DNA from: Eledone cirrhosa
Lineage: Eukaryota
Length of the DNA: 64,000 nucleotides
Assembly (NCBI GenBank): GCA_964016885.1
Contig: OZ024750.1
Coordinates: forward strand, 19,840,001-19,904,000
Reading direction: 5' to 3'
Of this stretch, positions 492-57,109 are shown in pieces. Numbering within the stretch: position 1 is the first letter of the stretch; each line of letters opens with the position of its first letter. The position numbers and the translations under genes are program-made. Below the pieces are notes generated by a model. That model had not been told where the DNA came from. It saw only the letters and a list, made by a program, of their open reading frames with translations, and ran no database searches.

Positions 492-650
492 AGAAACGAG
501 TTAGACTCCGACGGCTGAGCTCAAGCCATTTCGATGGCTAGTTCAGCCGTCAGAGTCCTACTCGTTCCTATTACCCACTCTACTACCCTAAGTATTGAGT
601 ACTTTGGTGCGTTATGGTCCATGTGGTTCCTTACTACATTTCCTTCGTTA
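492..650 (+). mobile_element. Family A short fold-back element (Penelope-like pLTR fragment) in (TA)n
   Basis: (TA)n on both sides. Arms 495-521 and 540-566 are inverted. The minus strand carries the 3' half of a hammerhead (GAAATGGCT-TGAGCTC-AGCCGTC). GTATTGAGTAC at 592-602. Four more copies in the window. Confidence 0.7.
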
Positions 651-1425
651 TATATATATATATATATATATATATTGGAGAATTGCATTGTGATTTCGAT
701 TCCTAGACAGGGCGATACGTTATGTCCCCCAGCAAGACGCATTAACTCACGTTGTTCCTTCTGACTGGAGTTGCAACCGACATATAGTATTAGCAATTGA
801 ACAGACCAATGTAAACATTGTTTGCTCGCTCGTTAAGTGTGGCAGCATAAACGGAAGTTGAATTACCTGATGGATGTTCTATTGGGAAGTATTCGATTCT
901 GTTCCGCACTCCTGGAGGCGAGAGGCCCTTTTACTTGCCAAAGAACCAGATACCATAATCAGAGCCACAGATAAACAATCTTCTTCCGGTACCACAACCC
1001 TGGATTAATTAAAAAGAAAGACTATATTGTCACTGATAAAATAGATAATGGCACGTTCATATTTCAATGCGTCTATCTTTCTCTGATGCTACTTATTTTC
1101 TCCATACTGTTGTTAGAATTCCGTCACATCTGACGACTAGTGGCCCAGTTCCTGTAACAACGGTACATCAGGCTTAACATAGTTCTCAGAGAGATTCAGC
1201 GTGGTTCCAGGTTACAACTGGTGGGCATTTGAATTACTTTTTACAAAACAGTTTTCCAGCTGAGAACAGGACGGGTGATGTGAGATATTTGTTCTTGCAC
1301 AATAATACAATGTACCTATGAGAAAATAAATGATAACGTTACGAACGTCAGTCGAACATTCTATCAACTAAACCATGTGCATTCACATTGGTTCATGTAC
1401 GCTTTTATAATCAAATATGTATCTT

Positions 1426-1650
1426 GAGGGCGGTGGATTGGTAGTATCGGTAGAGCATCGGACACCAAGCTTTACAGCATAGAGTTGTGTCCCTTTGCTT
1501 CCTAGTTCAAATTCCGCCGAGGTTAGCTTTACCTTTCATCCTTGAGGGGTCGATGAAAGAAAGTACCAGAAATGCACTGGATTCAATTTAATCGTCTCCC
1601 CCCCCCCCCTCCCCCGATATTGCTGGCTTTTCGAAATCAGAAACCGTTAT
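1426..1650 (+). mobile_element. tRNA-derived SINE
   Basis: A-box-like TGGTAGTATCGG and B-box GTTCAAATTCC. Central CCTTTCATCCTT..GGGGTCGAT..AAAGTACCAG block. Imperfect TSD ATCA(A/G)ATATGTAT at 1410-1422 and 1649-1661. Confidence 0.85.
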
Positions 1651-2529
1651 CAGATATGTATTTACTTAGCTGTTATGTCAATTAAGTATTAGGATAACAT
1701 AGATGGCCCATTGTTGTTGATTTATTCTTGAAACACAGGATTAATATTTTAATATATTGCATTGAACTTATGGGATATGTTTTGTCACATTATACATTAT
1801 ACAGATGATTGTTTTCGATAAATACTAAATCTCTATTGAACCCCTTCCTGTTTAAATAGAAAGGAAAACAAAAACGTGTTAAATCATTGATTATGTAAAT
1901 CATATACAATCGATTTGGCTTATCAACCTCAGAGCAGATTATATTGTCATAGAAGTTTTCATAGAGGGCATTCCGATTATATGAAACCATATAAACTTGT
2001 GCGTTTTATTTCTATATCTTGCGCATATACCTTTATCTCAAATGTCAGCAATCTAGCGATAGAATGTAGCAATCGTTTCGGAGATATTTTCTCTAATGTA
2101 AAACAATATTAATTCGAGGAGGTTTATTTGAAAAAGTGCGTCATTCTTCATCCGAAACTGCACCGACTTAGCGATGTATGTCTGCAATCAATATGAGTGG
2201 CCATGCACTCCTATGAAACAATATTTCTATGTAAGAAATATTATGATGGGACAATATGTTTTCTTCACAATCTCCACCAACATAGCAATGGACGGTAGCC
2301 ATATTTTTCTGACATATTTATGATTTATTGCTCTTGCGCTTATCACAAGAGATAGCTGTAAGGACATACGACAAACAACAAATATATATATTTTGAAAGA
2401 AGCAAATAATATACATAAAGATGATCAAATGTGAAGATTAAATATTTTCATCAAACAAAACACACTCGCTCTTATATACATACATATATACATACACACA
2501 TACGCATACAGACATACACACACACACAC

Positions 2530-3630
2530 ATATATATATATACATATATATATATGTATATATATATATATGTATATATATATATGTATATATATATATA
2601 TATATGTATATATATATATATAAATATATATATATATATATATATATGTATATATATATATATGTATATATATGTATATATATATATATATATATATACA
2701 TATATATATACATAAATATATATATATATATAGTAATAATAATAAATTTAAAGACTAAAATCCAAAGGGGGCTGTTATTTTAATATATATATATTTATAT
2801 ATATATATATATATATATAGAAGAAGAGATGAAATCGAAAATGCAACTGGAGTCTTATTTAAAAAAATATATATATATATTTATTTGGTTCCTTTACCGG
2901 TTTCGCAGTTCTTCTGCTTTTCAAAAGGTGAGTTGAGATTGAGGGTCTGTGGTTTTTCTCACAGAGATGTGAGAAAAACCACAGACCCTCCATATATATA
3001 TATATATATATATATATATATATATATATATATATATATATATATATATATATGTATATATATATATATGTATATATATATATACACACACACATATATA
3101 TATACATATACGTATATATATATTTATACACACACATATATATATACATATATATATATATATATATATATATATATATATATATATATATATATACATA
3201 TATATATGTATATATGTCAATATATATATATGTATATATATATATATATGTATATATATGTATATATATATATATATATATATATATATATATGTATATA
3301 TATATATATATATATATATATTTATACACATATACATATACATATATATATATATATGTATATATATATATATACATATATATATGTATATATGTATATA
3401 TATATAGGTATATATATGTATATATGTATATATATATATAGGTATATATATATATGTATATATATCTCTCTCTCTCTCTATATATATATATATATATATA
3501 CATATACATATATACATATATGTATATATATATATACACATATACATATATACATAAATGTATATATATATATATTTATACAAATATATATATACATATA
3601 TATATATATATATATATGTATATATATATA
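2530..3630. repeat. Long interrupted (TA)n/(TACA) microsatellite block
   Basis: Seen directly; source of the YIYI ORFs. Confidence 0.95.
2891..2928 (-). ncRNA. Degenerate minimal hammerhead ribozyme
   Basis: Minus strand: CCTT-TTGAAAA-GCAG aagaa CTGC-GAAAC-CG-GTA-AAGG. All three stems pair, but the core is mutated from CUGAAGA. Adjacent perfect 23-bp hairpin at 2941-2990. Confidence 0.5.
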
Positions 3631-4116
3631 TTGTTGTACTTTGGGAGGGTCATGTTGCCAATAAGAAACACACGCACCAGTTGCTTTCACTTCAATTTAT
3701 TATATATTTATAAATTTATAAATTTACAAATCTACAAACTTATAAATTATAAATTTCTGGTTGGTTGGTTGGTTCCACAACCAGATAGTTGTTTATATAT
3801 ATAGTCATAGTCCTTTCGTCACACACTCTGTGACCTCTTCAGTGACTGGAGAGGTCACAGAGTGTGTGACGAAAGGACTATGACTATATATATAAACAAC
3901 TATCTGGTTGTGGAACCAACCAACCAACCAGAAATTTATAATTTATAAGTTTGTAGATTTGTAAATTTATAAATTTATAAATATATAATAAATTGAAGTG
4001 AAAGCAACTGGTGCGTGTGTTGCTTATTGGCAGCATGACCCTCCCAAAGTAAAACAATATCGGTTTCAACACACGATTTCAGATAAAGAATCTTGCTAAA
4101 CAAATTCAGAAACGAA
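3631..4116. mobile_element. Family F fold-back element: near-perfect palindrome with 213-bp arms plus a 3' tail
   Basis: Arms 3631-3843 and 3845-4057 are reverse complements around G3844. Unique tail 4061-4116. (TA)n flanks. Relatives at 19488, 25690 and 54527. Confidence 0.85.
3803..3847 (-). ncRNA. Minimal type I hammerhead ribozyme
   Basis: Minus strand: AGTCA-CTGAAGA-g-GTCAC agagtgt GTGAC-GAAAG-GA-CTA-TGACT. Stem I AGTCA/TGACT, triplet CUA. The mirror copy on + has a CTGGAGA core. Confidence 0.75.
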
Positions 4117-55107: not shown

Positions 55108-55267
55108 TCTATAATTATATATATATATATATATATAAATATATGTATAAATATTTCGTATCTCCAAAGAATTACAGTTTTAGGAAGCCGTAGCTATGCA
55201 AACACCGGGTGGGGGGGGGGGGGGGGGGCAACGCCCTCTGGTGATGTCCAGCAGAAGCAAGGTGACA

Positions 55268-55311
55268 ACCGTCTATGCATTTCAGGCTTAACTGGCCTTC
55301 GTCAGGACGGT
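55268..55311 (-). ncRNA. Minimal type I hammerhead ribozyme
   Basis: ACCGTC-CTGACGA-AGGC cagttaa GCCT-GAAAT-GC-ATA-GACGGT. Confidence 0.85.
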
Positions 55312-55525
55312 CCCTCCCACCGCTTGCGACTGCTGGACTAGAAGACAGCAGAGAATATATACTTTTCTCTTCTTTGTAAATGAGGCGATTAATCTCATTT
55401 GCACATGAAGCTGCATAAGTTGGCTCAACTTATCATAAAAAAAGAAATAGGATTTCGCTTCAAGCATAGCTTTATACAATATGTATAAATATTTCGTATC
55501 TCCAAAGAAATACAGTTTTAGGAAG

Positions 55526-55569
55526 ACCGTCCTGATGAAGGCCAGTTAAGCCTGAAATGCATAGACGGT
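55526..55569 (+). ncRNA. Minimal type I hammerhead ribozyme
   Basis: ACCGTC-CTGATGA-AGGC cagttaa GCCT-GAAAT-GC-ATA-GACGGT. Palindromic stem III ATGCAT, AUA triplet. Confidence 0.85.
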
Positions 55570-57109
55570 TGTCCCCCTTGCTTCTGCTGGACAGCACCAG
55601 AGGGCGTTAGCCTTCGGTGTTTGCATAGCTACGGCTTCCTAAAACTGTATTTCTTTGGAGATACGAAATATTTATACATATTGTATAAAGTTATGCTTGA
55701 AGCGAAATATCCAATTTCTCTATATATATATATATATATATAAATGAATGATATAGAAAGTGTTGTAGCAAGAAGCCAACAGTATTCCATATATATATAT
55801 ATATATATACGTATTCATATATATTTGTATATATCATCAAGTGAAATTACAGGAGGCAAAACATATCTAATTTCCTTAAATATTGATTACTGCAAATATT
55901 ACGCACATTTCAGTGAGTAGGTTGCGTAAGAACTTAGGGATATCTCCAGGTATGAATTGCATAATAGATGTATACCAACGAAATGTTGGTAAACTTTATG
56001 GAAACAAGCAAAGAAAACACAGAAAAGAAAATAGTGTGTTAATGTTTTTAGTCCAGAGACGAACGAGGCTGCATGTTTTTTATCTCTGAGTGAGTTACCT
56101 TCAATATACTTCCTGGTAGTTTGAGTCGCGCTTAGGGGTATGCGTATCCTACTGGGCGAATAACTACTACCTCTTAATTCTAACCACTTTTGGGCAGCAG
56201 GCCTGGGAAGGGGAAGGGGAGCATAATATCGTATTACACAGAATGGTAAGTTGCTGGGTTAGCTAAGATCTATACGGAGGGGATTTTTAGGAAAAATTCA
56301 GGTTTAAATTGTTAAAGTTAGAGTTAATTTTAGGAATTGAAAATTGAAATAAAAATAATGTAATTGAATGTTTAAAAATGTTTAAAATTTAATTAACATT
56401 TAATTAAATAAGTAGAGTCTGCACAGTTGGTCGGTGAAGTACCATTTAGAAAGACCAGTTACGTTAAATATTCTAATTATAGAGGTGTGTAAATCAGGGA
56501 CCTAATAAACAAATAACATAATGTTAGTTAAGCTAAGGTCAGTCACTATCTGTCCAGGGTTTCTCTCGTAGTTCAATGTTATATTATACTATATTAGTAG
56601 TATAGTATGGCGGTTAACAACTGAACATGGCGCCTTCCAACACACACAGGGCCCAAAGGCCTACTGACCGTTTAGAGTATTACGGTATATCGTGGAAGAT
56701 GGGAAATTAAATTTATTTCTAAACACTAAAGGAGGTGGTTAAAGTCAGGCGCCCAGGGCGTAGCTAGAAGGGTCCCCACCGCCAGTCTGTGTCGTAATAT
56801 ATGCCAAGTATTCCTAGTTATCTATACTAGTGAGGTTAATGATAACATCGATGAGTATGAAAACAATCTAATAAATGTACATATAGTTAATGGTAAATAT
56901 CTGAAAGAGTAATTAAAGGAAAGTATAATGTATCGGGCACATAGAAGGTAAAATAATTTAGGTAAAGGATGAGTAAAATGTAAATAAAAATCTAATCGCA
57001 GCATTTACAGAATGGTAGCCATGGGAGGAAAAAATAAATATATAAAATAAAATGAAAATAAAAATAAAAATAAAAATAAAGAATAAAATAATAAATAAAA
57101 GATATAAAA

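What the first reader, a model, noticed from the sequence alone, without database searches (positions are those of the whole stretch)
492..55708. Swarm of hammerhead-carrying, (TA)n-inserted Penelope-like mini-elements from about 10 families
Seen: complete hammerhead folds at 3803-3847(-), 4441-4491(+), 21663-21709(+), 28352-28398(-), 31186-31225(-), 51795-51859(+), 55268-55311(-) and 55526-55569(+). Weaker or degenerate ones at 2891, 13659, 14787, 18684, 19301, 24242, 25692 and 48246. The families have unrelated sequences but the same layout: 150-500 bp, (TA)n flanks, a truncated inverted copy joined to a direct copy, and a short tail. Two families are attached to GIY-YIG ORF ends. Established: Penelope-like pLTRs carry minimal hammerheads and often show inverted 5'-truncated pLTRs. 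Inference: a diverse retrozyme-like community preferring TA microsatellites, at roughly one ribozyme motif per 3-4 kb, invisible to ORF-based annotation.
Basis: partly seen in the sequence, partly recalled or inferred. Interest (0 to 1): 0.82.

Follow-up and report, generated by a model that had tools for sequence, protein, structure and literature searches.

The report
Rewired hammerhead ribozyme in Naiad retroelements
This stretch of animal DNA is littered with broken ends of Penelope-like jumping genes carrying ordinary minimal hammerhead RNA motifs, and among them lie three copies of a hammerhead whose parts come in a rearranged order that is also present in published Naiad elements, a group reported to lack canonical hammerheads, so these elements likely carry an overlooked self-cutting RNA.

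Summary
The swarm is real but known. Fifteen of 15 insertions lie within 200 nt of (TA)n (background 44%). One of two GIY-YIG ends is confirmed. These are best read as 5'-truncated Penelope-like element (PLE) ends, as in Cervera and de la Pena 2014, not retrozymes.

Its blocks run cleavage site, GAAA, CUGAUGA (type-SGC order), but the helix II partner lies upstream and an extra helix joins the ends between A9 and 10.1. By eye, 10 of 54 published Naiad consensus ends show the core of this fold, and 6 nematode Naiads show type CSG. In 44 related metagenome loci six helices are 92% paired with compensatory swaps. SGC hammerheads were reported only from metatranscriptomes; I found no paper linking them to PLEs. 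Cleavage is untested, and Naiad membership of the window family rests on the RNA fold, not protein.

The parts
14977..15078 (-). Rearranged hammerhead, copy A, all six helices present: P0 15078-15074 with 14981-14977; hairpin P5 15073-15053; helix II 15051-15047 with 15021-15017; P4 15046-15041 with 15001-14996; helix III 15038-15033 with 15012-15007; predicted cleavage after 15032; helix I 15031-15025 with 14995-14989; CUGAUGA 14988-14982
14923..15388 (-). Truncated element carrying copy A, between two (TA)n runs (466 nt); body 64% identical over 156 columns to the body of element B
35381..35470 (-). Rearranged hammerhead, copy B1, 5'-truncated inside hairpin P5; predicted cleavage after 35431
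   Evidence: family variation
35875..35979 (-). Rearranged hammerhead, copy B2; 8-bp hairpin P5, one helix III mismatch, P0 decayed
   Evidence: (relaxed setting only)
35299..35990 (-). Element B: two direct copies of the ribozyme region (156 of 168 identical) around a roughly 330-nt body, 3' end at a (TA)n run; partial-tandem layout; 5' limit approximate
3637..4051 (.). Fold-back insertion, 98% inverted identity; intact type-I motif at 3803-3847(-), core of the other arm mutated
4369..4497 (+). Inverted tail plus 46-bp tandem dimer of a type-I motif (4398-4442, 4440-4492)
13660..13738 (-). Type-I motif with long helix II region and palindromic helix III
18570..19449 (-). Truncated canonical PLE: inverted terminal copy (motif 19301-19335,+), ORF end, 3' region, terminal copy (motif 18684-18718,-)
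19129..19286 (-). C-terminus of an RT plus C-terminal GIY-YIG protein (63% identity over 41 aa to P0002)
21619..21762 (.). Fold-back insertion with back-to-back type-I motifs (21621-21663,-; 21661-21711,+); same family as 4369 and 28353
24241..24270 (-). Type-I core with helices II and III, helix I decayed; upstream ORF not identified
25686..25740 (+). Decayed type-I motif, same family as 3803-3847
   Evidence: by eye
28352..28519 (.). Fold-back insertion with type-I motif 28352-28398(-)
31162..31297 (.). Fold-back insertion with type-I motif 31186-31225(-)
51795..51859 (+). Type-I-like core whose helix I does not pair; decayed
   Evidence: not returned
55267..55312 (-). Type-I minimal motif, helix I 7 bp, palindromic helix III
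55525..55570 (+). Type-I minimal motif, same family as 55267; inside fold-back 55452-55708
2881..2991 (-). Small insertion with fold-back and a type-I-like motif with two core changes
   Evidence: motif by eye
48198..48310 (-). Decayed type-I-like motif next to (TA)n
   Evidence: by eye
493..648 (+). Member of a five-copy (TA)n-flanked family (also 18414, 27104, 37206, 51319) that keeps only the GAAA, helix III and cleavage-site half of a type-I motif
   Evidence: half-motif by eye

Best explanation
The window holds at least 15 short insertions beside (TA)n runs that are likely the truncated 3' ends of Penelope-like retroelements; most carry ordinary minimal type-I hammerhead motifs, and two carry three copies of a rearranged hammerhead fold that is predicted to self-cleave and likely marks them as Naiad-type elements. 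Shown: the motifs, their excess over shuffles, the fold-back and partial-tandem layouts, TA adjacency, one GIY-YIG ORF end, and for the rearranged motif the order P0, P5, helix II strand, P4, helix III strand, cleavage triplet, helix I strand, helix II strand, GAAA, helix III strand, P4, helix I strand, CUGAUGA, P0. Inferred: PLE endonuclease and RT insert copies at TA repeats, and early termination or fold-back leaves only the terminal repeat. The rearranged motif would fold as a double pseudoknot with the normal hammerhead core, being type SGC opened between A9 and 10.1 where the two extra helices are inserted. Intact family members would cleave after the NUH triplet as monomers, because helix III is stable, and so process tandem precursor RNA as proposed for other PLE hammerheads. 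Odds: truncated-PLE reading of the swarm 0.9; rearranged fold is a conserved hammerhead-type structure 0.85; intact members cleave 0.65; the window family is a Naiad 0.65.
For: Swarm; same features in PMC4209133 and PMC8557442. Rearranged motif in the window: 2 strict hits against a mean of 0.02 in 300 shuffles; between copy A and both B copies 0 of 13 core, 11 of 46 stem and 3 of 16 linker positions differ; 24 pairs are 90% paired with 4 double changes. About 1,100 contigs or 2,200 reads per run from 4 runs lie on 35300-35680, depth in the two contig sets peaks on the ribozyme core, majority alleles restore an upstream helix II pair (35448) and a P4 pair (35399), remove the downstream alternative (35378, 35380), and the cleavage-site base varies between A and C (40 of 92 variant rows shown). 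Published Naiad consensus ends read by eye: 10 of 54 show helices I-III and P4 in this order with unrelated stem sequences (7 independent families in ctenophores, cnidarians, a crustacean and cephalopods; P0 visible in the Acropora and Beroe ones), 6 nematode ones show type CSG. Unpaired stretches of the window family resemble the Octopus Naiad ends (by eye). Metagenome loci: 40 of 119 pattern matches have helix I >=5 bp, 24 of these also an upstream helix II >=5 bp, none a downstream one >=4 bp; 0 of 45 viral control matches have helix I. Six helices, 51 pairs, 92.2% paired in 44 loci, with subfamily swaps in helix I (CG 21/UA 19), P4 (UA 21/AU 20) and P0 (UA 21/AU 18+GU 2); the downstream helix II rival is 24% paired. 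Locus L056 has a Naiad-type RT end 325 nt upstream, and its homologue P0022 shows an N-terminal nuclease remnant, CxC and DKA motifs and a C-terminal RT by eye.
Against: No cleavage data. The window copies are decayed: both B copies lack the usual G10.1-C11.1 pair, copy A has it only with a bulge or a second register, and B1 alone pairs helix II slightly better downstream (-6.5 against -5.7 kcal/mol). The three-copy covariation is not significant alone (36-38 of 500 shuffles). Nested MFE folds of the window copies do not give the structure. No protein links the window family to Naiads: no homologue for the A body and no hit with a 30-protein Naiad profile. A model built from the metagenome family did not find the window copies. 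The metagenome loci are two subfamilies from four assemblies, found with a pattern taken from the Acropora and Octopus consensus ends, so each swap is one evolutionary event and four helix III pairs are forced; helix II shows only one single-sequence double change there. Only 3 of 58 picked loci reach RT sequence, and Pfam does not recognise the nuclease of P0022. 33 of 54 Naiad ends showed no hammerhead in the part displayed and 5 were unclear. In the one PLE tested in vitro, hammerhead cleavage was not needed for insertion (PMC11167929 passages).
Confidence: 0.72

Rival explanations
1. The elements are dedicated non-autonomous retrozymes that spread through self-cleaved circular RNAs.
For: One hammerhead-length tandem dimer at 4396-4487; families with several short copies; animal retrozymes derive from PLE terminal repeats (bioRxiv 10.64898/2026.07.22.740005, parts 1-3 read).
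Against: No arrays of 170-400 nt monomers; 5' ends vary within families; one insertion keeps an ORF end; fold-backs are a described feature of truncated PLEs.
Confidence: 0.12
2. The rearranged fold is a conserved structural signal of the element (for RT recognition or RNA stability) derived from a hammerhead, which no longer cuts.
For: The chain is interrupted between A9 and 10.1, which PMC10085705 assumed impossible; G10.1-C11.1 is missing in the B copies; cleavage was dispensable for insertion in an anole PLE.
Against: CUGANGA, GAAA, the A-U pair and a non-G cleavage base are kept across four phyla while stems change completely; type-SGC and CSG relatives cleave in vitro.
Confidence: 0.2
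3. The window's three copies are conventional type-SGC hammerheads with helix II formed downstream of CUGAUGA.
For: B1 has a 5-bp downstream partner.
Against: Absent in A and B2; removed by alleles in 99% and about 70% of family depth; 24% paired in the related loci; 0 of 40 loci.
Confidence: 0.05
4. The rearranged match in the window is chance pairing in AT-rich repeat DNA.
For: 6 of 300 shuffles gave one strict hit; the three copies are one family; short helices were partly found by eye.
Against: Six helices in the same order as in unrelated Naiad families; double changes in helix I and P4; none of 45 control loci pair helix I.
Confidence: 0.04

Closest known systems
Minimal type-I hammerheads in PLE pseudo-LTRs (Cervera and de la Pena 2014, PMC4209133; parts 1-2 of 4 read)
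   Same: Block order, extra base between 9 and 10.1, palindromic or missing helix III, many sequence families per genome, mostly single truncated copies, pairs 100-700 bp apart on opposite strands.
   Different: Nothing essential for the swarm. A search for octopus plus hammerhead ribozyme returned no dedicated paper.
Type-SGC and type-CSG hammerheads (Eckert et al. 2023, PMC10085705; parts 3-6 of 8 and section 7 read, supplement searched once)
   Same: Non-circular block order S-G-C, short linker between helix I and II strands, extra helix tying the far sides of helices I and II, intact core.
   Different: Theirs keep CUGANGA joined to the helix II strand and were found only in metatranscriptomes (SGC) or two metagenome sequences (CSG), none in genomes of known organisms. 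Here the chain opens between A9 and 10.1 through an added helix and hairpin, and the motif sits in animal retroelements.
Naiad clade of PLEs (Craig et al. 2021, PMC8557442; passages, metadata sheet and consensus ends read)
   Same: (TA)n targets, partial tandems, cephalopod remnants, same rearranged motif near the 3' end of several consensus sequences.
   Different: The paper reports no canonical hammerhead, only 'HHR_core' (10 mentions) and 'HHR_half_core' (8) labels. The window family is not the published Octopus family and shows no ORF.
Non-LTR retrozymes (PMC7229834 passages; bioRxiv 10.64898/2026.07.22.740005)
   Same: Short non-coding units with a type-I hammerhead, related to PLE ends.
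   Different: Defined by tandem arrays and circular RNAs; only one 46-bp dimer here.

Membership tests
Canonical EN+ PLE ends with minimal type-I hammerhead | Type-I core with helices I and II and short or palindromic helix III | tested here: met
   (7 strict, 12 relaxed)
Canonical EN+ PLE ends with minimal type-I hammerhead | RT with C-terminal GIY-YIG upstream of the terminal repeat | tested here: inconclusive
   met for 1 family; not confirmed at 24270; no ORF in the others
Canonical EN+ PLE ends with minimal type-I hammerhead | Inverted 5'-truncated copy or partial tandem | tested here: met
Canonical EN+ PLE ends with minimal type-I hammerhead | Self-cleavage, usually as dimers | not testable with these tools
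   needs in vitro assay
Non-LTR retrozymes | Tandem monomers of about 170-400 nt, each with a hammerhead | tested here: not met
   only a 46-bp dimer among 118 tandem-repeat rows
Non-LTR retrozymes | Abundant linear and circular RNAs | not testable with these tools
   no RNA data available
Type-SGC hammerhead | Block order S, G, C with intact core, helices I and III | tested here: met
Type-SGC hammerhead | Helix II strand directly 3' of CUGANGA (uninterrupted block C) | tested here: not met
   partner lies upstream
Type-SGC hammerhead | Helix joining the far sides of helices I and II | tested here: met
   P4: 78% paired with 2 double changes in the window, 95% in related loci
Type-SGC hammerhead | Cleavage at the predicted site | not testable with these tools
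   needs in vitro assay
Naiad PLEs (window family A/B) | N-terminal GIY-YIG, CxC linker, C-terminal RT | tested here: inconclusive
   no protein match in the short bodies; the Octopus Naiad 3' UTR is about 1 kb, so copies this short would not reach the ORF
Naiad PLEs (window family A/B) | (TA)n insertion and partial tandem layout | tested here: met
Naiad PLEs (metagenome family L046 onward) | RT C-terminus upstream of the motif; full-length relative with N-terminal nuclease | tested here: met
   3 of 58 loci reach RT; P0022 layout by eye, nuclease not scored by Pfam

The most novel reading that the evidence does not exclude
Naiad retroelements across several animal phyla carry active non-circularly permuted hammerheads: type CSG in nematodes and, in ctenophores, cnidarians, crustaceans and cephalopods, a seventh natural topology in which the chain enters and leaves through an extra helix inserted between A9 and 10.1. 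This would be the first such ribozymes in genomes of known organisms, overturn the rule that the CUGANGA block cannot be interrupted, and explain the 'missing' hammerheads of Naiads.
Probability: 0.55. Interest if true: 0.85.

Novelty: new variant of a known kind. Interest (0 to 1): 0.72.

Why it matters
The rearranged motif bears on two published statements: that Naiads lack canonical hammerheads and show only unexplained 'half cores' (PMC8557442), and that six block orders exhaust the hammerhead because CUGANGA cannot be separated from its helix II strand (PMC10085705). A roughly 100-nt natural RNA now tests both in one afternoon's transcription assay. It would also put non-circularly permuted ribozymes, so far known from unassigned environmental sequence, into high-copy animal retroelements, and it means current descriptors and Rfam models undercount genomic hammerheads.

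Tried and rejected
No whole genome is held, so no genome-wide census or parent element. Rfam: 0 at gathering; E-value list dominated by microRNA models on TA repeats. Inverted-repeat finder swamped by TA runs; masked self-BLAST used instead. Pfam on 14 read-through frames found only the LINE at 57897-61169 and a weak zinc knuckle. 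The ORF upstream of 24270: its single hit P0003 is a repetitive protein, rejected; no atlas hit. Atlas search with the 19152-19298 peptide gave unnamed clusters and a 0.88 GIY-YIG lead only. A short shared reading frame in bodies A and B looked coding but found no homologue; left as of unknown coding status. Window-family pattern: 0 matches in metagenome contigs. No RNA holder listed. Covariance model of the related family returned only palindromes in the window. Rows dropped: of 58 loci picked, 5 lacked 32 nt of upstream flank, 4 lacked the family's upstream sequence (L074, L084, L131, L154) and L113 was a false member, leaving 48; 4 more lacked flank for the 44-row alignment. Dropping the 4 raises the paired fraction. 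Ten Chlamys consensus ends (about 400 nt each) showed no such motif by eye. Literature: 10 searches found no paper placing a permuted hammerhead in Naiads or describing a helix inserted at 9/10.1; subscription papers are missing, Lunse et al. 2017 was not held, and the variants 'with additional helices' cited in PMC13725137 could not be traced, so a precedent is not excluded. bioRxiv supplements were not seen.

Full report
CONTEXT. The window is AT-rich repeat DNA with 211 (TA)n runs, a dispersed SINE-like family of 13 copies and one LINE. No genome is held. An octopod host is my inference from the SINE's appearance (recalled) and from resemblance to published Octopus Naiad ends; no call names the organism.

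A strict type-I descriptor returns 7 motifs against 0.025-0.04 in shuffles, a relaxed one 12 against about 0.35; tolerances were set after viewing the motifs. Seven of 8 'complete' sites pass; of 8 'weaker' sites 4 pass relaxed or long-loop settings, 3 look decayed and 14787 is unsupported. All 15 hand-listed insertions lie within 200 nt of (TA)n, against 44% background and 4 of 13 SINE copies. Fold-back arms are confirmed by masked self-BLAST. The ORF end at 19129-19286 matches the C-terminus of P0002, an RT plus GIY-YIG protein; the second claimed ORF was not confirmed. Cervera and de la Pena describe thousands of such motifs per animal genome, mostly single and probably from truncated PLEs, and Craig et al. 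describe the inverted copies, tails and microsatellite bias. The swarm is therefore a new instance of a known thing, and the retrozyme label fails its defining test of tandem monomers.

Three CUGAUGA cores at 14988, 35387 and 35887 (minus strand) have their GAAA upstream. A descriptor for the order cleavage site, GAAA, CUGANGA finds two of them strictly and the third when relaxed, against a mean of 0.02 in 300 shuffles. This is the type-SGC order of Eckert et al., validated in vitro but found only in metatranscriptomes. The helix II partner, however, is not downstream of CUGAUGA as in SGC. Copy A has six helices: P0 joins the 5' flank to the bases right after CUGAUGA; hairpin P5 precedes the helix II strand; P4 and helix III form a long hairpin whose loop holds the cleavage base, one helix I strand, one helix II strand and GAA. 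Topologically this is SGC closed into a circle and reopened between A9 and 10.1, the position where PLE hammerheads tolerate an extra base. Eckert et al. assumed this junction cannot be interrupted.

EVIDENCE INSIDE THE SPECIES. Between copy A and both B copies, 0 of 13 core positions differ and 11 of 46 stem positions do; 24 pairs are 90% paired with double changes in helix I and P4, not significant alone. Laying four runs on 35300-35680 shows a high-copy family. Majority alleles restore a helix II pair and a P4 pair, remove the downstream pairing that B1 alone offers, and switch the cleavage base between A and C; only 40 of 92 variant rows were shown, none of them in CUGAUGA or GAAA. Against: both B copies have A at 11.1, two overlapping upstream registers are possible for helix II, and nested folding does not predict the structure.

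EVIDENCE OUTSIDE. Craig et al. report that Naiads lack canonical hammerheads but note 'half cores' with GAAA on either side. I read the last 350-400 nt of all 54 Naiad consensus sequences in their supplement by eye. Ten show the opened order with helices I, II, III and P4 (Beroe, helix I only 2 bp; Clytia-3; three Acropora; Morbakka-2; Eulimnadia; two Octopus; Euprymna, helix II weak), which is 7 independent families; P0 is visible where the flank was shown and clear in Acropora and Beroe. Six nematode families show clean type CSG. Five are unclear and 33 showed nothing in the part displayed. A pattern from the Acropora and Octopus ends gave 119 metagenome loci (20 of 64 parts scanned) and 45 viral control loci. 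Helix I, which the pattern does not impose, pairs in 40 of 119 and 0 of 45; 24 of the 40 have the upstream helix II and none a downstream one. These 40 belong to one Acropora-like family with two subfamilies. In 48 aligned copies four helices are 93.5% paired and the downstream rival 24%; in 44 with longer flanks six helices are 92.2% paired, with subfamily-wide swaps in helix I, P4 and P0. Each swap is a single event, so the shuffle controls overstate significance; the stronger argument is the complete change of stem sequence between phyla. L056 has an RT C-terminus 325 nt upstream whose homologue P0022 has the Naiad layout by eye.

MECHANISM. Shown: sequence, layout, pairing potential, conservation. 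Inferred: insertion by PLE enzymes at TA repeats with truncation and fold-back; folding of the rearranged motif into a hammerhead core with P4 tying helices I and II and P0 plus P5 holding A9 next to 10.1; monomeric cleavage; processing of tandem precursors. The biological need for cleavage is open even for canonical PLEs. The window family's link to Naiads rests on the fold, on shared unpaired stretches with the Octopus ends and on (TA)n; protein tests were blank and a model of the other family missed it.

NOVELTY. Ten literature searches found no report of permuted hammerheads in Naiads or of this opening (listed under Tried and rejected); coverage is incomplete. Earlier unchecked notes of this scan mention rearranged hammerheads and twisters in Naiad-like elements; I saw them after forming this reading and do not count them as support. 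Verdict: swarm already known (about 0.25 alone); rearranged Naiad-type hammerhead a new variant of a known kind; overall interest 0.72.

Noticed in passing
window 57897-63327 (-): Near-intact two-ORF LINE: 1090-aa frame with endonuclease, RT and zf-RVT domains, upstream frames with a weak zinc knuckle.
   Followed up: partly
window 1426-1594 and 12 more copies to 57299: SINE-like family, 75-92% identical, not TA-associated; used as control.
   Followed up: partly
window 3842-3846, 4396-4401, 21661-21667, 28394-28398, 31220-31240: In 5 of 9 insertions inspected the fold-back or truncation junction lies within 7 nt of the CUGA core. May be selection of what still counts as a motif, or a preferred stop site.
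   Followed up: partly
window 5187-5433, 27689-27776, 30798-31009, 32299-32334, 51559-51659, 54525-54837: Further fold-back insertions without a hammerhead core, probably copies truncated 3' of the motif.
   Followed up: no
window 493-648, 18414-18476, 27104-27238, 37206-37368, 51319-51454 and 21655-21762, 28395-28519, 43181-43353, 48638-48752: Two families share a roughly 25-nt hairpin-like 3' motif although their hammerhead regions differ.
   Followed up: partly
window 4447, 21661, 28394, 31220 cores: Two families close helix II with a U.U mismatch instead of G-C; also reported for an axolotl hammerhead.
   Followed up: no
window 24400-26900: Two copies of a strongly G-skewed region (82-94% identical) with no protein match, upstream of the 24241 motif.
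   Followed up: partly
window 14762-14854 and 15586-15678: Two-copy (TA)n-adjacent family, 95% identical, without a valid hammerhead core; flanks element A on both sides.
   Followed up: partly
Naiad consensus ends in PMC8557442 supplement: Bivalve, hemichordate, one Clytia and one fish Naiad share another conserved structured motif near the 3' end, and Morbakka-1 looks twister-like (recalled consensus).
   Followed up: no
Naiad consensus ends of six nematode families: Clean type-CSG hammerheads, a type published from only two metagenome sequences.
   Followed up: partly
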